Below the pieces are notes generated by a model. The model was not told where the DNA came from. It saw nothing but the letters and a program-made list of their open reading frames with translations, and ran no database searches. A stretch of DNA of 12,833 nucleotides from a virus (taxonomy: Duplodnaviria > Heunggongvirae > Uroviricota > Caudoviricetes). Positions 4,861-12,833 of the stretch are shown one piece after another; position 1 is the first letter of the stretch, and each line of letters opens with the position of its first letter. The position numbers and the translations under genes are program-made. The stretch is taken from positions 1 through 12,833 of IMG/VR virus record IMGVR_UViG_3300029248_000207; one strand, written 5' to 3'.

Positions 4861-5223
4861 GGGGCTGATTCTGGATTCGACGGGATTTGCGAAACCCAAG
4901 GTGCATGCCGAGGGGCGGTTGGCCTCGTAAAAAGCCGCAAAAAATAGTCGCAAACGACGAAAACTACGCTTTAGCAGCTTAATAACCTGCTTAGAGCCCT
5001 CTCTCCCTAGCCTCCGCTCTTAGGACGGGGATCAAGAGAGGTCAAACCCAAAAGAGATCGCGTGGAAGCCCTGCCTGGGGTTGAAGCGTTAAAACTTAAT
5101 CAGGCTAGTTTGTTAGTGGCGTGTCCGTCCGCAGCTGGCAAGCGAATGTAAAGACTGACTAAGCATGTAGTACCGAGGATGTAGGAATTTCGGACGCGGG
5201 TTCAACTCCCGCCAGCTCCACCA
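4861..5223 (+). ncRNA. ssrA: tmRNA (SsrA), 363 nt
   Basis: Starts GGGGCTGATTCTGGATTCGACGGG, ends GCCAGCTCCACCA. Internal tag reading frame at 4950..4982 encodes ANDENYALAA followed by a stop. tRNA-like 3' end (GGTTCAACTCCCGCC). Confidence 0.95.
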
Positions 5224-5406: not shown

Positions 5407-6612
5407 ATGGCGCGCATCACACGCCCCCTCACTAACAACGAGATCCTTAAAGCTAAACCCCGAGAAAAAGATTTCACTCTGCATGATGGGGACGGCCTGT
5501 TCTTACTCGTGAAAACATCTGGTAAAAAGCTCTGGCGCTTCCGATACCAACGTCCAGTAAGTAATAGCCGAACTAACCTGAGTCTCGGCTCATACCCTGC
5601 CCTTACACTCGCAGCAGCTCGTCAGATACGCGACCAATATTTGGCTACGCTCGCGCAGGGGATGGATCCGCAACAGCAACAAGAGCAAGCATCAGAGCAA
5701 CGTCAGATTGAGCTGGATAGCATTTTCTCAACTGTGGCCTCCAACTGGTTCAAAATGAAGAGCAAAAGCGTCACAGAGGACTACGCGAAGGATATTTGGC
5801 GTTCTCTAGATAAAGACGTATTCCCAGCAATAGGCGCGATACCTGTTCAGGAGATTAAGGCCAGAACGATAGTTGAAGCATTGGAACCAATCAAAGCACG
5901 CGGCGCATTAGAGACTGTTCGTCGCCTGGTCCAGCGCATTAACGAAATAATGATTTACGCAGTCAACACCGGNNNNNNNNNNNNNNNNNNNNNNNNNNNN
6001 NNATCAGGTGTTGGAATGGCATTTGAGAAACCCAAAAAGCAGAACATGCCCACGCTACGACCAGAAGAATTACCTAAGCTGATGCGTTCTCTGGTCATGT
6101 CGAATCTGTCTGTTTCGACTCGATGTCTTATTGAGTGGCAGCTCCTGACCCTAGTGCGCCCTTCTGAGGCTTCTGGTGCTCGGTGGGTCGAGATCGATCT
6201 CGATGCCAAACTCTGGACGATTCCCGCCGAACGAATGAAGGCTAAGCGTGAACACATTGTCCCTTTGTCACCTCAGGCTTTAGATATTTTGGAAGTAATG
6301 AAGCCAATCAGCGCTCATCGTGAACATATTTTCCCTAGTAGAAATGATCCAAAGCGGCCGATGAATAGTCAGACTGCTAATGCTGCTTTAAAACGTATAG
6401 GTTATGGTGGAAAATTAGTTGCACATGGTTTACGTTCAATAGCCAGTACAGCTCTCAACGAATCTAATTTTAATTCTGATGTGATTGAGTCTGCGCTGGC
6501 ACACACAGATAAGAATGAGGTTAGGAAAGCGTACAATCGGTCCATTTATTTGAAACAAAGAGTTGAGCTAATGGACTGGTGGGGTAATTTTGTTATGATT
6601 ACTAATAGATGA
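5407..6612 (+). CDS. intA: P4-family tyrosine integrase (IntA-like)
   Basis: 401-aa ORF next to ssrA; N-terminal arm-binding-type domain and C-terminal catalytic region with HGLRSIA and a terminal Tyr region (KAYNRS). A 30-nt N-run at 5973..6002 is in frame (10 unknown codons). Confidence 0.9.
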   Translation: MARITRPLTNNEILKAKPREKDFTLHDGDGLFLLVKTSGKKLWRFRYQRPVSNSRTNLSLGSYPALTLAAARQIRDQYLATLAQGMDPQQQQEQASEQRQIELDSIFSTVASNWFKMKSKSVTEDYAKDIWRSLDKDVFPAIGAIPVQEIKARTIVEALEPIKARGALETVRRLVQRINEIMIYAVNTXXXXXXXXXXXSGVGMAFEKPKKQNMPTLRPEELPKLMRSLVMSNLSVSTRCLIEWQLLTLVRPSEASGARWVEIDLDAKLWTIPAERMKAKREHIVPLSPQALDILEVMKPISAHREHIFPSRNDPKRPMNSQTANAALKRIGYGGKLVAHGLRSIASTALNESNFNSDVIESALAHTDKNEVRKAYNRSIYLKQRVELMDWWGNFVMITNR

Positions 6613-6625
6613 TAAAGGACTGCAC

Positions 6626-8068
6626 ATGAGCACAGTAAAAAATATTGATACCGTTTCATCAAACTTTAACATTTCGCCATCAATTCTTGATCAACTTGAT
6701 GTTGTTGATGTTTTATTAGAGTCAGATACGTTGCTTTTCATTGACCCTATGCTCCTCCCTGAAAGTAAGCATCCTGAAATGAAAGTGGATGCTGATAAGA
6801 AATACATAGATACTTTCACAAGTATCATTAAATTACTTAAAGCATCTAAGGTTCAGAATGATAATGATGTTGCTTGGAAGGCAGCCAAAAAGTTATTTTC
6901 ATTTTCCGAAATAGGATGGACATGTTTGGGTTATGGCTCATCAGCCAAAGGCTCAGGATTCGGGCCACACCTTGTGAACACAACAATGAATACTGCCTAT
7001 CAAATTATCAACATGGATATTGATGATCCTGACTTATTTATGGTCATGTCGTTATTTGAAGAAGGTATTGGGGCTGATAGAATTAGTGACATGACTACAA
7101 ATATAATATTTGAGTCCTTAGTGAAATTCTCAGAAAGAGTTAATCAAACCCTTCAAATCCCGACAAAAGAATTTTCTTTTAAAGGGAAAAAGTACATTGC
7201 CCCTCATAATCCATTAACAGATAAACCATTAATATTAGTTCCTAAAGATGTTGTCCGTGATTTGCCTATATCCACTGACTGGAGCGGTGCAGTCAGTACA
7301 ATGAAAGAAAACACGGACCTACGTGACAGAATTAATACCAACATTGGTAAACTGCTCGCATCAATGACCCAAAAAGAAAAAGCTGAAGCCAAGCGACGAG
7401 CTTTAGAGAAAAAAGAATATTTTGAAGACCTCCTAGAATTAATAAAAGAAGTAGAAAAAGAGCCTTACGATTTTAAAGCTGATAAGAATGGTGAATTATT
7501 TTGGTCAAGACTTGTATCTTCAATAGATAAAAAATACCCTTTCAATCTTTCTAAGTTTAATAAAAAACTAACCTTAGATGATGTAGAAAATTTGGTTGAT
7601 GAGATATTAACCCAATTCAAAGATCTAATTGAAAACAAAGGTCTATGGAAGGAAATGTGGGCAGATGATAAAAAACCAAGAAAAGAAAAAGCGGCTCAAC
7701 GTTTACTTTTTGCAGTAGCTTATTCATATTGCAAAGCCAATAACTTAGACATTAGCCCTGAGGCTGACTCTGGTAATGGACCTGTTGACTTCAAAGTCTC
7801 GCAAGGATTCGAGCAGAAAGTTTTAGTTGAAGTTAAGTTATCATCCAATGGTAAATTACTGCACGGATATGAAAAGCAATTAGAAATTTATAGAAATGGT
7901 GATGATACAGATCGAGCATTTTTCGTAATAGTTGATATCGGTCATTTAGGAGAAAAATACCAAAAGGTCCAGCAGGCTAGAATTGCAGCAGAAAATGAAG
8001 GTTTAAGAGCCTCAAAGATTATTCATATTGATGCACAACAAAAAGACTCTGCGAGCATTCGTATCTAG
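6626..8068 (+). CDS. Cargo protein of unknown function with a C-terminal PD-(D/E)xK nuclease-like domain; candidate anti-phage defence gene
   Basis: 480-aa ORF, uninterrupted and AT-rich compared with its neighbours; RBS-like aaggac upstream. C-terminal motifs: GPVDF (Asp codon at 7787..7789), VEVK (Glu at 7829..7831, Lys at 7835..7837), then QLEIY (QxxxY, as in RecB/Cas4-type nucleases). The N-terminal ~350 aa are unrecognised, with a Gly-rich patch (GYGSSAKGSGFG) and a charged coiled-coil-like stretch. It lies between int and cos/psu. Confidence 0.8.
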   Translation: MSTVKNIDTVSSNFNISPSILDQLDVVDVLLESDTLLFIDPMLLPESKHPEMKVDADKKYIDTFTSIIKLLKASKVQNDNDVAWKAAKKLFSFSEIGWTCLGYGSSAKGSGFGPHLVNTTMNTAYQIINMDIDDPDLFMVMSLFEEGIGADRISDMTTNIIFESLVKFSERVNQTLQIPTKEFSFKGKKYIAPHNPLTDKPLILVPKDVVRDLPISTDWSGAVSTMKENTDLRDRINTNIGKLLASMTQKEKAEAKRRALEKKEYFEDLLELIKEVEKEPYDFKADKNGELFWSRLVSSIDKKYPFNLSKFNKKLTLDDVENLVDEILTQFKDLIENKGLWKEMWADDKKPRKEKAAQRLLFAVAYSYCKANNLDISPEADSGNGPVDFKVSQGFEQKVLVEVKLSSNGKLLHGYEKQLEIYRNGDDTDRAFFVIVDIGHLGEKYQKVQQARIAAENEGLRASKIIHIDAQQKDSASIRI

Positions 8069-8340: not shown

Positions 8341-8911
8341 CTAGCGTGCGGCCAGTTCTGCACGTCGGCGGGTGTAAATCAGGTTCTGTGCTGGGGTGAA
8401 TTTCTGGCGATTATCATCCCGCGAAGCCGCATCAGGCCTGAATCCGATGCCCGTTAAAATATCGCTGTCCTGCGCGGAATAATTAATTTTTTCACCTGCG
8501 GCCAGCCACACCGACAGGGCTTCACGCAGATAATCAACCGAGTGCTGCATGGCGCTCTGTTTTACTGCGGGAAGCTGTTCGTTATACCCCATCAGCTCAG
8601 GTGCCAGCGTGGCGGCCAGCTCCGCGCCGTGCTGCTGCATAAAGTCATGGAGCCGGTTGCGGATGCTGATGTGCTGCACCTCCTCATGTGAGCGGATATN
8701 NNNNNNNNNCGGCGGCCTGATTAATTTCCCACTTTTTCACGTCGATATTGTCGCGCAAATCCTGCATTCTGAGCGGAATTTGTTCGTCACCGGCAAGGAG
8801 CTGTTCACGGTATTCCCGTTCAAGGTCTGCCAGTTCGGCTTTACGTTTCAGCCAGGTGTTTTTGTTCGTCTGACAGGCCTCAAAGGCCTGCTGTATGGTC
8901 ACAGTGGTCAC
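8341..8911 (-). CDS. psu: Polarity suppression protein Psu (capsid decoration / Rho antagonist), interrupted by a 10-nt N-run
   Basis: Two minus-strand ORFs (8684..8911, 75 aa; 8341..8679, 112 aa) together read like P4 Psu (MTTVTIQQAFEACQTNKN...EINQAA [gap] IRSHEEVQHISIRNRLHDFMQQHG...). GTG start at 8911, preceded by aggagag. The N-run at 8700..8709 separates the halves, which are in different frames as written. Confidence 0.8.
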
Positions 8912-10446: not shown

Positions 10447-10713
10447 ATGCACACCGCTTTTTCTTCCCCGTCTTCTGCCCCTGCCGCGCCGCTGATGCCG
10501 GTTTCTGATACCGTTCACGAGCGCTTTATCCGTCTGCCCGAAGTGATGCATCTGTGCGGCCTGTCCCGCTCGACCATTTACGACCTCATCAGCCGGGAAG
10601 CCTTCCCGAAACAAATCTCCCTCGGCGGAAAAAACGTGGCGTGGGCGCAGTCTGAAATCACTGCATGGATGGCGGATCGCATTGCCGAACGTAACCGGGG
10701 CTATGACGCATGA
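10447..10713 (+). CDS. alpA: AlpA/Vis-family phage regulatory protein (excisionase-like HTH)
   Basis: 88-aa ORF (P4 Vis is orf88); the RLPEVMHLCGLSRSTIYDLISREAFPKQISLGGKNVAWAQSEITAWMADR region resembles the AlpA/Vis winged-helix; RBS gagg 8 nt upstream. Confidence 0.85.
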   Translation: MHTAFSSPSSAPAAPLMPVSDTVHERFIRLPEVMHLCGLSRSTIYDLISREAFPKQISLGGKNVAWAQSEITAWMADRIAERNRGYDA

Positions 10714-10840
10714 TGATGGCCGCTCAGCAAAAAGCCCCTTTTTCTGGCTTGCTTCTTTTCGCCGTTTCCAGGTATAGTTTTCCCGCTGTCGCAAAATCGG
10801 CAGCCGGGCGTAGGAACCCGTGTAATTCACAGGCGACAAC

Positions 10841-10865
10841 AGACGCGCCATGCGTCTTTTTTTAC
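10841..10865 (+). terminator. Rho-independent terminator inside the immunity-like region
   Basis: AGACGCgccatGCGTCTtttttttt: 6-bp GC-rich stem plus T8, about 25 nt downstream of the first GCGTAGGAAC element. Confidence 0.55.
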
Positions 10866-10995
10866 GTCGTTGCTCAGGCACACCCATTTTTCGGGCTGTA
10901 GCCCCTGTCAGATAATGGTGGTCCGGGCGGGGCAGCTTTCGGGCTGGCCGGTATTCTGTGAAGCCGGTATTCCTACCCCCGTTCGGGTCACCACC
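10866..10995 (+). ncRNA. Candidate P4 CI-like immunity RNA region (contains the seqB-like element); ends undetermined
   Basis: No plausible ORF here. CCGGTATTCCTAC (10964..10976) is complementary to GTAGGAACTCCGG (11003..11015; 11 of 13) and partly to GCGTAGGAAC (10808..10817). CCGGTATTC is also duplicated at 10948..10956. This matches the seqA/seqB/seqC logic of P4 immunity. Confidence 0.3.
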
Positions 10996-11052
10996 CATGA
11001 GCGTAGGAACTCCGGTGGTGGCAATAACCGCTATTCACAGGAGGTTGCCATC

Positions 11053-11247
11053 ATGGCTACGACCCTCACCCCGTCACACCCGCAGTTTGTCTTTGTGTTT
11101 GCCGCCGTTCGTCGCGCAGACCGTAAACCCCGTATTTGCATGCTGCGCACCGTTGCCGGTGACGAGCACGCCGCACGCCTTTCCCTCGTTCGCGATTACA
11201 TCCTCTCGTTCGCTGGCCGTTTGCCGGTTCTGGAGGTGCGCGCATGA
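11053..11247 (+). CDS. Hypothetical small protein (P4-like early operon)
   Basis: 64-aa reading from an ATG preceded by a strong RBS (cacAGGAGGttgccatcATG); its stop overlaps the next start (ATGA at 11244..11247). The longer six-frame ORF from 10870 has no RBS. Confidence 0.55.
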
Positions 11248-11471
11248 GACACACCACCATTACCGCCCGTGACCTCGAATGTCTGGAGCATATGCGCAAC
11301 GTCGGCCAGCTCGTCGGCGACCTGATGCAGGTGCAGGACTGCGCCACCGTTCGTCGTGACCCGACGCAGCAGTTACAGCTCACCTCCGTGATTTACCTCA
11401 TGACCGCCCAGCTCGACGGCGTGGTCGAACGCTGCAATCAGCACTGGCTGACCGGGGAGAGCAACGTATGA
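11244..11471 (+). CDS. Hypothetical small protein (position corresponds to the epsilon/anti-repressor region of P4-like elements)
   Basis: 75-aa ORF translationally coupled at both ends (ATGA overlaps at 11244 and 11468); no recognisable motif. Confidence 0.5.
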
Positions 11472-11788
11472 AAAAGCCATTACCGCCCGTATTACGCGCC
11501 GCGCTGTATCGTCGCGCCGTGGCCTGTGCATGGCTGACCCTGTGCGAACGCCAGCACCGCTACCCGCACCTCACCCTCGACGCGCTGGAAAGCGCCATTG
11601 CGACCGAGCTGGAGGGCTTCTATCTGCGCCAGCATGGCGAGGAAAAAGGCCGTCAGATTGCCTGTGCCCTGCTTGAAGATTTAATGGAAGCCGGACCACT
11701 CAAAGCCGCCCCGTCGCTGTCCTTTCTCGGGCTGGCCGTGATGGATGAGCTTTGCGCCCGTCATATCACCGCACCGGTACTGCACTGA
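11468..11788 (+). CDS. Hypothetical protein, 106 aa, immediately upstream of the primase
   Basis: ORF coupled to the upstream gene and ending 14 nt before the primase start; P4 has an orf106 in the equivalent position, but I cannot confirm sequence similarity. Confidence 0.5.
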
Positions 11789-11802
11789 GGGAGAAAACAA
11801 CG

Positions 11803-12833
11803 ATGAAAATGAACGTAACAGAAACGGTAAAACAGGCGTGCGGCCACTGGCCGCGCATTCTCCCTGCGCTGGGTGTGAAGGTGATTAAAAACCGCCATCA
11901 GTCCTGCCCGGTGTGCGGTGGCTCTGACCGCTTCCGCTTTGACGATAAAGAGGGGCGCGGGACGTGGTTCTGTAACCAGTGCGGCGCGGGTGACGGACTT
12001 AAGCTGGTAGAAAAAGTGTTTGGCGTGACCCCGTCTGAGGCCGCCGGGAAGGTGAATGCCGTGACCGGCAACCTGCCGCCGGTTGCCCCGGAAGTGATTG
12101 CGGTCGCAGAGGCTGAAACGGAGGCCGACCGCAAAGCGGCGGCCGCGCTGGCCGTCAGGCTCATGGAGAAAACCCGACCGGCCACCGGCAATGCCTACCT
12201 CACCTGCAAGGGTTTCCCCGCTCTGGAATGTCTGACGCTCACCGCCATGCATAAAACCGGCGGCGTGACGTTCCGCGCCGGGGATGTGGTTGTCCCGCTG
12301 TATGACGATACCGGCGTACTGGTTAACCTTCAGCTTATCAATGCAGACGGTCTCAAACGCACCCTGAAAGGCGGTCAGGTCAAAGGGACATGTCATATCA
12401 TCGAAGGGAAAAAACAGGCCGGAAAACGCCTGTGGATTGCGGAGGGTTATGCGACCGCGCTCACCGTGCATCACCTGACCGGGGAAACCGTCATGGTGGC
12501 GCTGTCCTCAGTAAACCTCCTTTCTCTGGCGAGCCTTGCCCGTCAGAAGTCCCCGGCCTGTCAGATAGTGCTTGCCGCCGACCGTGACCTGAACGGCGAT
12601 GGCCAGAACAAAGCCACAGCGGCCGCAGACGCCTGTGAGGGCGTTGTTGCCCTGCCACCGGTATTCGGTGACTGGAATGATGCGTTTATACAGTACGGCG
12701 AGGAAGCCACGCGGAAAGCGATTTATGACGCTATCCGGCCACCGGCGCAAAGTCCGTTTGATACCATGAGCGAAGCCGAATTTACCGCCATGAGCGCCAG
12801 CGACAAGGCCTTGCGGGTGCATGAGCATTACGG
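11803..12833 (+). CDS. P4 alpha-like primase(-helicase), N-terminal part; continues past the window end
   Basis: Open frame from the ATG at 11803 (RBS gggag upstream) to the window end; it is absent from the ORF track because it has no stop in the window. Zinc-binding motif CPVCGGSDRFRF...WFCNQCG and a TOPRIM-like region (WIAEGYATALTV..., VLAADRDLNGDG). Confidence 0.85.
   Translation, partial: MKMNVTETVKQACGHWPRILPALGVKVIKNRHQSCPVCGGSDRFRFDDKEGRGTWFCNQCGAGDGLKLVEKVFGVTPSEAAGKVNAVTGNLPPVAPEVIAVAEAETEADRKAAAALAVRLMEKTRPATGNAYLTCKGFPALECLTLTAMHKTGGVTFRAGDVVVPLYDDTGVLVNLQLINADGLKRTLKGGQVKGTCHIIEGKKQAGKRLWIAEGYATALTVHHLTGETVMVALSSVNLLSLASLARQKSPACQIVLAADRDLNGDGQNKATAAADACEGVVALPPVFGDWNDAFIQYGEEATRKAIYDAIRPPAQSPFDTMSEAEFTAMSASDKALRVHEHY

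What the first reader, a model, noticed from the sequence alone, without database searches (positions are those of the whole stretch)
10800..11045. P4-type RNA immunity region: duplicated GCGTAGGAAC elements flanking a complementary TTCCTAC core
GCGTAGGAAC occurs at 10808..10817 and 11001..11010, each followed by ATTCACAGG (10825..10833, 11033..11041). Between them, CCGGTATTCCTAC (10964..10976) is complementary to both, with 11 of 13 matches to GTAGGAACTCCGG. A rho-independent terminator (10841..10865) follows the first element. In P4, immunity is set by a small CI RNA whose seqB pairs with seqA and seqC on the nascent transcript and causes premature termination. The arrangement here fits that mechanism, and no protein repressor gene is evident.
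Basis: partly seen in the sequence, partly recalled or inferred. Interest (0 to 1): 0.6.

Follow-up and report, generated by a model that had tools for sequence, protein, structure and literature searches.

The report
P4-type antisense RNA immunity switch

Summary
The repeats are real and sit at the stated coordinates. The region is the immunity leader of a P4-like satellite integrated at ssrA in E. coli, and it is 81% identical to phage P4's own immunity region. Rfam finds a full-length C4/CI antisense RNA (10911-10998, 78 bits) and, upstream, an IsrK/seqA-type RNA ending in an intrinsic terminator (10785-10862, 75 bits).

The small RNA carries two 7-nt boxes: b' CUGUGAA in a hairpin loop and a' UUCCUAC in a linker. 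Each is complementary to an upstream target (a1, b1) and a downstream target (a2, b2). Box b2 abuts the Shine-Dalgarno sequence of a Kil/Icd-like ORF that heads the primase operon.

Across 40 leaders from other Enterobacterales and 63 from viral contigs, the boxes vary (7 a' types, 13 b' types in the first set). They stay complementary in about 100% of cases, against 30-45% in shifted controls. P4 itself differs from the window by two bases, compensated in all three a-box copies.

A private 14-nt deletion breaks the overlapping eta-like ORF.

The parts
10447..10713 (+). alpA/vis-like helix-turn-helix regulator (88 aa, the same length as P4 ORF88/Vis), immediately upstream of the immunity promoter
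   Evidence: Pfam Phage_AlpA, 72 bits. It sits in the same position as P4 ORF88.
10749..10778 (+). PLE-like promoter: -35 TTGCTT (10749-10754), 18-nt spacer, -10 TATAGT (10773-10778)
   Evidence: It aligns with P4, where X02534 annotates TATAGT as a consensus -10. GGCTTGC and TA(T/C)AGT are conserved in the related loci. The consensus scanner did not call it, because the -35 matches only 3 of 6.
10785..10862 (+). seqA / IsrK-type leader RNA: two hairpins followed by a terminator, carrying target boxes a1 and b1
   Evidence: Rfam isrK, 74.6 bits, full length. c4-a1b1 gives 45.2 bits at 10772-10824.
10810..10816 (+). box a1 GTAGGAA, in the loop of leader hairpin 2; pairs with a'
   Evidence: 100% paired in 40 leaders, with 6 of 7 pairs changed on both sides. 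It sits at a fixed offset in 63 viral-contig leaders.
10826..10832 (+). box b1 TTCACAG, single-stranded and just 5' of the terminator; pairs with b'
   Evidence: G-U pairs are tolerated here, which indicates pairing at the RNA level.
10841..10865 (+). intrinsic terminator, the counterpart of P4 t1: stem AGACGCG/TGCGTCT followed by T7
   Evidence: Terminator scan. It is part of the isrK model. It is conserved in P4 and in all related leaders.
10889..10906 (+). remnant of a spacer hairpin. The junction of a 14-nt deletion lies between 10898 and 10899 and creates a TAG at 10899-10901.
   Evidence: Alignment with E. coli KMi029, which is identical to the window apart from these 14 nt.
10911..10998 (+). 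CI / c4 antisense RNA: a long basal stem (10916-10932 with 10977-10993) enclosing two hairpins
   Evidence: Rfam C4, 78.3 bits. The minimum-free-energy fold is the Rfam fold, z = -2.73. On 40 leaders it is 100% paired, with 6 pairs changed on both sides.
10956..10962 (+). box b' CTGTGAA in the loop of hairpin 2 (part of seqB)
10970..10976 (+). box a' TTCCTAC in the unpaired linker (the seqB core). P4 has TTCTCAC here.
10987..11022 (+). possible alternative hairpin: the 3' arm of the c4 stem (10987-10995) pairs with GGTGGTGGC (11014-11022), with a2 in the loop
   Evidence: 98.9% paired in 40 leaders, with 3 pairs changed on both sides; slid controls give 23-69%. Its role is unknown.
11003..11009 (+). 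box a2 GTAGGAA (seqC, first half)
   Evidence: 99.6% paired. It sits at a fixed offset of -50 from the ATG.
11034..11040 (+). box b2 TTCACAG (seqC, second half). It overlaps the first two bases of the Shine-Dalgarno sequence AGGAGG (11039-11044).
   Evidence: In most relatives the pairing extends to 9 nt and runs into the GGA of the ribosome site.
11053..11247 (+). kil / icd-like ORF (64 aa), the first translated gene of the operon
   Evidence: NCBIfam Icd-like NF033153, 77 bits. 85% amino-acid identity to the P4 Kil reading frame. The RNA is C-rich and G-poor (C/G 1.4-1.8).
10710..10901 (+). truncated eta-like ORF. It starts at ATGATGATG, overlapping the vis stop codon, and is cut short by the deletion-created TAG.
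   Evidence: The equivalent frame runs through to the kil stop in KMi029 (an annotated 183-aa CDS) and in 36 of 40 genome loci.
11244..12833 (+). the downstream genes under this control: orf75 (11244-11471), a DUF5375/cnr-like gene (11468-11788) and the alpha primase-helicase (11803 to the window end, partial)
   Evidence: Pfam DUF5375, 219 bits. Zn_Ribbon_Prim plus Toprim_3. The gene order matches P4.

Best explanation
This is the immunity leader of a P4-like satellite prophage and works as P4's does.

Shown here: the anatomy, the homology to P4, and the evolutionary maintenance of all four box pairings. A promoter homologous to P4 PLE (-10 at 10773-10778) heads a leader that contains, in order: seqA (boxes a1 and b1) in an IsrK-type fold, an intrinsic terminator (t1), the CI/c4 RNA, and seqC (boxes a2 and b2).

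Inferred from P4 and P1 work: the CI/c4 RNA of about 78 nt (stem 10916-10993) is cut out of the read-through transcript, in P4 and P1 by RNase P at the 5' end. It displays b' (CUGUGAA) in a hairpin loop and a' (UUCCUAC) in a linker. Pairing of a'/b' with a2/b2 covers the ribosome-binding site of kil (ATG at 11053). The untranslated, C-rich kil RNA then allows premature termination (Rho-dependent timm and t4 in P4), so the primase operon stays silent. Pairing with a1/b1 on the nascent leader raises termination at t1, which limits CI RNA production itself. Processing, termination and the immunity phenotype in this particular element are all inferred. Because the a box differs from P4's by two compensated bases, this element is probably heteroimmune to P4, or only partly cross-immune since the b box is the same.
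For: Rfam C4, isrK and c4-a1b1 hits, and the same three hits in P4. 81% DNA identity to the P4 immunity region. P4 has GTGAGAA/TTCTCAC/GTGAGAA where the window has GTAGGAA/TTCCTAC/GTAGGAA. In 40 independent leaders there are 7 a' and 13 b' types in 28 combinations. A locus's own boxes pair 7/7 in 39-40 of 40 loci for each interaction, while boxes from different loci average 4.3-4.7. Structure counts give 99.6% and 100% paired, covariation 0.89 against 0.23 shuffled, and 30-45% for slid controls. In 63 distinct viral-contig leaders all four interactions are 7/7 at fixed offsets. G-U pairs are tolerated, which indicates RNA pairing. The c4 fold is supported. b2 overlaps the Shine-Dalgarno sequence. 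The Kil ortholog is 85% identical to P4's. The satellite gene set is P4-like. The literature equates IsrK with seqA and C4 with CI RNA.
Against: There are no expression data for this element. Processing sites, Rho dependence and CI-dependent termination at t1 are carried over from P4 work that I could not read here (Sabbattini 1995 is not held; Briani 2000 and Forti 1999 are from my own knowledge). In the window the b'-b2 duplex is shorter (7 bp plus one G-U) than in P4 and most relatives (9 bp). This copy has a 14-nt deletion just 5' of c4 that truncates a spacer hairpin and breaks the eta-like ORF, and it has no recognisable epsilon gene. The element may therefore be partly defective even though the immunity module looks intact.
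Confidence: 0.9

Rival explanations
1. IsrK-type activation. The short RNA of about 78 nt that ends at the terminator (10785-10862) is the main regulator. Acting in trans, its a1/b1 boxes bind a'/b' on the read-through transcript or on free c4 RNA. That frees a2/b2 and the ribosome site and turns kil and the operon on, so it works as an anti-antisense decoy. This is compatible with the main model and could be a second layer of it.
For: The isrK model matches full length above its gathering score. In Salmonella Gifsy-1, short IsrK binds the read-through isoform and makes it translatable, and the authors note that IsrK is complementary to the processed downstream RNA STnc1160 (PMC4825925). a1 and b1 pair with a' and b' as well as a2 and b2 do, so competition between them is physically possible.
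Against: In P4, seqA is described as a target through which CI RNA promotes termination, not as an activator (as cited). In Salmonella Typhi, the IsrK-like elements of P4-like prophages are required for growth in transposon screens, which points to a role in maintaining lysogeny rather than inducing (PMC3632133). In Gifsy-1 the downstream genes are an anti-repressor system, not replication genes.
Confidence: 0.3
2. Purely translational, P1-style control. The small RNA only blocks the kil ribosome site, and nothing happens at the upstream terminator. The a1/b1 boxes would be an inert or buffering duplicate.
For: b2 overlaps the ribosome site. The downstream ORF belongs to the Icd-like family, as in the P1 c4-icd-ant operon.
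Against: a1 and b1 are maintained by compensatory change as strictly as a2 and b2: 100% paired, with 12 of 14 pairs changed on both sides. They also keep a fixed distance from the conserved terminator. That is not expected of an inert copy.
Confidence: 0.1
3. A relic. The sequence is a true P4-type immunity region, but in this copy the element is decaying and the switch no longer controls anything useful.
For: A private 14-nt deletion breaks the eta-like ORF that 36 of 40 relatives keep open and is absent from 78 viral-contig loci. There is no epsilon homolog. psu and int cannot be fully judged because of N runs.
Against: The promoter, seqA, the terminator, c4, seqC and kil are all intact, and apart from the 14 nt they are identical to E. 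coli KMi029. alpha, the cnr-like gene, sid, delta and alpA are open reading frames.
Confidence: 0.15
4. The repeats are DNA sites for a protein, such as Vis/AlpA or the primase, or they are chance repeats rather than RNA pairing partners.
For: Taken alone, the 7-mers are not significantly over-represented in the window.
Against: The middle element is the reverse complement of the two outer ones, on the same transcribed strand. All three co-vary across more than 100 loci. G-U pairs are accepted but A-C is not. The middle element lies in unpaired positions of a covariance-model-supported RNA.
Confidence: 0.01

Closest known systems
Phage P4 immunity region (PLE, seqA, t1, cI/seqB, seqC, kil/eta)
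   Same: Orthologous. It has 81% DNA identity, the same order of promoter, seqA, terminator, CI RNA, seqC and kil, the same three Rfam hits, an identical b box and 85% identical Kil.
   Different: The a box differs at two positions, compensated in all three copies (GTAGGAA against GTGAGAA). The spacer between the terminator and CI is about 59 nt shorter. The eta-like frame is broken by a 14-nt deletion. The gene at the epsilon position is unrelated.
P1/P7 immI operon (c4 antisense RNA, a1 b1 / a' b' / a2 b2, icd, ant)
   Same: The same RNA family (Rfam C4), the same two-box logic with upstream and downstream target copies, b2 at the ribosome site of an Icd-family ORF, and immunity specificity set by compensated box changes. 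The P1/P7 details are from my own knowledge; the family assignment is.
   Different: In P1 the controlled genes are an anti-repressor (ant) that acts on a protein repressor C1. Here, as in P4, there is no protein repressor and the controlled genes are replication functions.
Salmonella Gifsy-1 IsrK / STnc1160 / orf45-anrP locus
   Same: The upstream element belongs to the IsrK family (74.6 bits) and has the same terminator read-through layout and a processed downstream RNA.
   Different: In Gifsy-1, short IsrK is reported to activate translation of the read-through transcript and leads to anti-repressor and AntQ expression. Here the context is a satellite replication operon, and a repressing role for the small RNA is expected.
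N15 / phiKO2-type linear plasmid-prophage anti-immunity RNA
   Same: phiKO2 and related Klebsiella phages match the promoter-seqA-c4 part at about 70-73% identity.
   Different: The match stops at the small RNA. The downstream genes are an anti-repressor operon (own knowledge).

Membership tests
Rfam C4 antisense RNA (RF01695) = P4 CI RNA / P1 c4 | Covariance-model score above the curated gathering score, over the full model | tested here: met
   78.3 bits against 45, model positions 1-87 of 87. P4's own CI region scores 74.9.
Rfam C4 antisense RNA (RF01695) = P4 CI RNA / P1 c4 | A long basal stem enclosing two hairpins, with the two recognition boxes unpaired (one in a loop, one in the linker) | tested here: met
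   The minimum-free-energy fold equals the model fold, z = -2.73. 27 pairs are 100% paired on 40 leaders, 6 of them with changes on both sides. b' lies in the hairpin-2 loop and a' in the linker.
Rfam C4 antisense RNA (RF01695) = P4 CI RNA / P1 c4 | Complementary target boxes downstream (a2, b2 / seqC), with b2 at the ribosome site of an Icd/Kil-family ORF | tested here: met
   a2 is at 11003-11009 and b2 at 11034-11040; the Shine-Dalgarno sequence is at 11039-11044 and the ATG at 11053. The ORF is Icd-like at 77 bits.
Rfam C4 antisense RNA (RF01695) = P4 CI RNA / P1 c4 | Complementary target boxes upstream (a1, b1 / seqA) | tested here: met
   a1 is at 10810-10816 and b1 at 10826-10832, 100% paired on 40 leaders. 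The c4-a1b1 model itself scores 45.2 against a gathering score of 46.7, marginally below, as it does in P4 (44.1).
Rfam C4 antisense RNA (RF01695) = P4 CI RNA / P1 c4 | A stable RNA of about 70-80 nt, processed from the leader transcript (RNase P 5' cleavage) | not testable with these tools
   This needs a northern blot, RNA-seq or an in vitro RNase P assay.
P4-type immunity (function) | The small RNA in trans causes premature termination of the leader and confers superinfection immunity | not testable with these tools
   Inferred from orthology to P4. No expression or phenotype data are available.
Rfam isrK (RF01394) / P4 seqA RNA | Covariance-model score above the gathering score: two 5' hairpins plus an intrinsic terminator | tested here: met
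   74.6 bits against 50, model positions 1-77 of 77. The terminator is also found by the pattern scan.
Rfam isrK (RF01394) / P4 seqA RNA | Hfq binding and trans-activation of the read-through isoform, as shown for Salmonella IsrK | not testable with these tools
   Described in PMC4825925. Nothing here bears on it.
P4-like satellite (seven key components: int, psu, delta, sid, alpA, epsilon, alpha; PMC8628076) | Presence and P4-like order of int, psu, delta, sid, alpA and alpha | tested here: met
   Phage_integrase. Psu in two pieces around an N run. Ogr_Delta. Sid at 30% identity, E 9e-28. AlpA. Primase zinc ribbon plus Toprim. The element is integrated next to tmRNA.
P4-like satellite (seven key components) | An epsilon (helper derepression) homolog | tested here: not met
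   The 75-aa ORF at the epsilon position (11244-11471) shows no similarity to P4 epsilon and has no Pfam or NCBIfam hit. The element would therefore count as a six-of-seven variant.

The most novel reading that the evidence does not exclude
The two 7-nt boxes may act as independent, freely reassorting address digits. There are at least 7 a types and 13 b types, in 28 combinations among 40 loci, and every copy of each box is re-compensated. This would give P4-like satellites a large combinatorial space of immunity specificities. In addition, a conserved alternative hairpin that shares the 3' arm of the c4 stem would display a2 in a loop. An eta-like ORF translated straight through the promoter, terminator and small-RNA gene is kept open in about 90% of elements. 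Together these would make the leader a three-layer device, in which RNA pairing, RNA refolding and read-through translation all operate, rather than a simple antisense switch. The satellite surveys I could search do not mention CI RNA at all, so the family-wide pattern may not have been described.
Probability: 0.3. Interest if true: 0.4.

Novelty: already known. Interest (0 to 1): 0.15.

Why it matters
In practice, genome annotation labels this stretch only as protein-coding. In the closest relative, E. coli KMi029, a 183-aa "Icd-like" CDS is drawn across the whole leader and no RNA genes are marked. The box sequences predict which satellites are immune to one another. That matters for how co-resident satellites and their defence cargo coexist in E. 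coli.

Tried and rejected
- **Promoter scan:** the sigma-70 consensus scan did not call the leader promoter, because its -35 matches only 3 of 6. I assigned the promoter by alignment to the -10 annotated in P4.
- **Primary literature:** Sabbattini et al. 1995 (PMC176756) is not held, and four paper or term look-ups failed on term length. The P4 details on t1, t4, timm, kil and eta therefore rest on my own knowledge plus the summaries in PMC4825925 and PMC3632133.
- **Longer pairing:** The extensions lie in invariant stems, so covariation cannot test them. Only the 7-nt cores are supported.
- **Alternative leader fold:** the single-sequence fold of the leader RNA pairs 10787-10792 with 10834-10839 instead of forming Rfam hairpin 1. 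I rejected this because P4 has a mismatch in that pairing, whereas Rfam hairpin 1 covaries in the alignment.
- **Epsilon:** I looked for a homolog at 11244-11471 and found none.
- **Coordinate errors:** three family scans failed on wrong frames or coordinates before the primase start was fixed at 11803.
- **Co-resident satellites:** I considered testing whether satellites sharing a genome always differ in box type. Only three such pairs were in hand (L005/L007, L003/L038, L014/L015). All three differ in at least one box, but that is too few to mean anything.

Full report
**Observation**

GCGTAGGAAC is at 10808-10817 and 11001-11010. ATTCACAGG is at 10825-10833 and 11033-11041. CCGGTATTCCTAC is at 10964-10976 and is 85% (11/13) complementary to 11003-11015. 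A G+C-rich hairpin at 10841-10857 is followed by a T run. Counted alone, the 7-mer cores are not remarkable in a 12.8-kb window: GTAGGAA occurs 4 times against 0.94 expected and TTCACAG 3 times against 1.74. The evidence that they matter therefore has to come from homology and comparison.

**What it is**

Rfam places two full-length RNA families inside the finding. The C4 antisense RNA (RF01695) matches 10911-10998 at 78.3 bits, with a gathering score of 45. isrK (RF01394) matches 10785-10862 at 74.6 bits, with a gathering score of 50. The c4-a1b1 target motif (RF03163) matches 10772-10824 at 45.2 bits, marginally under its gathering score of 46.7.

The surrounding genes are those of a P4-like satellite prophage inserted next to the tmRNA gene (4861-5223) of E. 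coli; recN in the same window is 100% identical to E. coli strains. The genes are:
- integrase (5407-6612)
- a 480-aa cargo gene
- psu, an Ogr/Delta regulator and a Sid homolog on the minus strand
- an 88-aa AlpA/Vis regulator (10447-10713)
- the RNA region
- a 64-aa Icd/Kil-like ORF (11053-11247)
- a 75-aa ORF
- a DUF5375 gene
- a primase-helicase from 11803 to the window end

Phage P4 itself aligns to 10700-11240 at 81% identity and gives the same three Rfam hits in the same order. The Kil reading frames are 85% identical. Two papers state the equivalence directly: IsrK-like RNAs are "seqA" and C4-like RNAs are "CI RNA" in the P4 literature (PMC3632133; PMC4825925).

**Anatomy**

The transcript should start about 7 nt after a TATAGT -10 (10773-10778). 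This aligns with the -10 annotated in the original P4 sequence record. The leader then contains the following elements in order:
- A first hairpin.
- A second hairpin whose loop displays GUAGGAA (a1, 10810-10816).
- A single-stranded UUCACAG (b1, 10826-10832).
- The intrinsic terminator.
- A short spacer.
- The C4/CI RNA. It folds as a long stem (10916-10932 with 10977-10993) enclosing two hairpins. This is both the Rfam consensus and the minimum-free-energy structure (z = -2.73).
- Within that RNA, CUGUGAA (b', 10956-10962) in the loop of the second hairpin and UUCCUAC (a', 10970-10976) in the unpaired linker.
- Downstream, GUAGGAA again (a2, 11003-11009) and UUCACAG again (b2, 11034-11040). 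The last two bases of b2 are the first two of the Shine-Dalgarno sequence AGGAGG (11039-11044), 8 nt before the kil ATG.

It is in fact the second target box.

**Test of the pairing**

I collected relatives through the Kil/Icd protein, so the RNA sequence did not bias the sample. This gave 42 loci from one-genome-per-species contigs (Kluyvera, Enterobacter, Pantoea, Serratia, Edwardsiella, Pectobacterium and others) and 80 from viral contigs.

In 40 alignable leaders the boxes are highly variable: 7 a' types and 13 b' types in 28 combinations. Each locus's own boxes nevertheless match. Pairing is 7/7 in 39-40 of 40 loci for each of the four interactions, against a mean of 4.3-4.7 for boxes taken from different loci.

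Position-specific counts on the alignment:

| Interaction | Cells paired | Pairs changed on both sides | Covariation (shuffled) | Slid controls |
|---|---|---|---|---|
| a'-a2 / b'-b2 | 99.6% | 12 of 14 | 0.887 (0.23) | 30-45% |
| a1-a' / b1-b' | 100% | 12 of 14 | 0.899 (0.23) | 36-45% |

In 63 distinct viral-contig leaders all four boxes sit at fixed offsets (a1 at -33 and b1 at -17 from the terminator; a2 at -50 and b2 at -19/-18 from the ATG). All are fully paired, sometimes through one G-U pair. Tolerance of G-U, and the reverse-complement relation on one strand, indicate RNA-RNA pairing rather than a DNA-binding site.

The comparison with P4 is the clearest single case. P4 has GTGAGAA / TTCTCAC / GTGAGAA where the window has GTAGGAA / TTCCTAC / GTAGGAA, a two-base change compensated in all three elements, while the b boxes are identical.

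**Mechanism**

Shown here: the anatomy, the orthology to P4, and the fact that evolution preserves all four pairings.

Inferred from P4 and P1 work (as summarised, otherwise my own knowledge of Sabbattini 1995, Forti 1999 and Briani 2000):
- The small RNA is cut out of the read-through leader.
- Its pairing with a2/b2 blocks ribosome binding at kil.
- The untranslated kil RNA, which is C-rich and G-poor here (C/G 1.4-1.8), then allows premature termination, so the primase operon stays off.
- Pairing with a1/b1 on the nascent leader increases termination at the upstream terminator, which feeds back on production of the small RNA.

Because the a box differs from P4's, this element is probably heteroimmune to P4, or only partly cross-immune since the b box is shared.

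The main rival is not really exclusive. In Salmonella Gifsy-1 the homologous short IsrK RNA acts in trans to open the read-through transcript for translation. The short terminated RNA here could likewise act as a decoy for the small RNA. The strict maintenance of a1/b1 fits either role.

**Comparison with known systems and novelty**

This is the P4 cI/seqA/seqB/seqC system and a member of the wider P1/P7 c4 family. It passes every membership feature that can be tested by sequence. The one near miss is the c4-a1b1 model, which also falls just short on P4 itself. At the element level it has six of the seven P4 key components listed in PMC8628076. The ORF at the epsilon position is unrelated to epsilon. 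Interest is low.

**Things seen along the way**

1. Over 10700-11300 the window is identical to E. coli KMi029 except for a 14-nt deletion (TGGTGCTTATTCCA) between 10898 and 10899. The deletion shortens a spacer hairpin just 5' of the small RNA. It also creates a TAG that ends the ORF starting at the ATGATGATG overlapping the vis stop codon. In KMi029 that ORF runs through the promoter, terminator and small-RNA gene into kil, and is annotated as a 183-aa "Icd-like" protein. An equivalent in-frame ORF beginning upstream of the promoter is open in 36 of 40 genome loci despite many indels. None of 78 viral-contig loci has the deletion junction. This ORF corresponds to P4 eta, whose translation from the upstream promoter is reported to carry transcription through the termination zone (own knowledge). 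The window's copy may have lost that route, or the deletion may be an assembly error.
2. The 3' arm of the small RNA's basal stem (10987-10995) can also pair with GGTGGTGGC (11014-11022). That pairing is kept in 98.9% of cells, with three pairs changed on both sides. In the P4 subgroup the changes are fully compensated in this helix but only by G-U pairs in the small RNA's own stem. The hairpin would display a2 in its loop. I have no tested explanation for it.
3. The two boxes reassort freely among elements. The satellite surveys I could search do not mention CI RNA, so this pattern may not have been described at family scale.

Noticed in passing
window 10898/10899 (junction); ORF 10710-10901: There is a private 14-nt deletion relative to the otherwise identical E. 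coli KMi029 sequence. It truncates a spacer hairpin 5' of the small RNA and creates a TAG that breaks the eta-like ORF. That ORF runs from the vis stop codon through the whole RNA leader into kil, and it is open in 36 of 40 related genome loci. The deletion junction is absent from 78 viral-contig loci. It could be a real defect or an assembly error.
   Followed up: yes
window 10987-10995 with 11014-11022: A conserved alternative helix forms between the 3' arm of the c4 basal stem and a downstream segment, and would put box a2 in a hairpin loop. It is 98.9% paired across 40 leaders, with 3 pairs changed on both sides. Its role is unknown; it might affect processing or target presentation.
   Followed up: partly
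loci L003-L044 and L046-L125, leader regions: The a and b boxes reassort independently: 28 combinations of 7 a' and 13 b' types in 40 loci, and 18 combinations in 78 viral-contig loci. The window's combination (TTCCTAC + CTGTGAA) recurs in Pantoea leporis (L024) and in 4 viral contigs. This suggests a combinatorial immunity code.
   Followed up: partly
window 6626-8068 (+): A 480-aa gene lies between the integrase and psu, the known defence-cargo hotspot of P4-like satellites. It has no Pfam domain. It has a partial match to the PADLOC candidate defence family PDC-M36A (49 bits, residues 21-214) and a weak match to the C-terminal part of EruA.
   Followed up: partly
window 5973-6002 and 8700-8709: Runs of N lie inside the integrase gene and inside psu. 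They split psu into two apparent ORFs (8341-8679 and 8684-8911), so whether those two genes are intact cannot be judged from the window.
   Followed up: partly
window 11244-11471 (+): The ORF at the position of P4 epsilon (helper derepression) is 75 aa. It has no similarity to epsilon and no family hit, so the element lacks a recognisable epsilon.
   Followed up: yes
window 5181-5187 (+): A fourth GTAGGAA, identical to the a1 and a2 target boxes, lies inside the tmRNA gene. It is probably chance: 3 of 200 shuffles give 4 or more copies.
   Followed up: no
L042, L043 (Pectobacterium); L091, L106 (viral contigs): These loci encode Icd/Kil relatives, but their upstream regions do not match the c4 core pattern I used. 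They may carry a more divergent small RNA or none.
   Followed up: no
L013 (labelled Vagococcus sp.), L035 (labelled Clostridiales MAG): Contigs assigned to Firmicutes carry near-identical enterobacterial P4-type leaders. L035 is almost P4 itself, with a different a box (TTTCCAC). These are likely contamination or mis-binning.
   Followed up: no
one search hits H23-H44 (Stx-converting and other lambdoid phages): The c4 part of the query (query 213-372) matches many Shiga-toxin phages at about 70-74% identity, next to anti-repressor genes. This is consistent with the same RNA module controlling ant in lambdoid phages.
   Followed up: no
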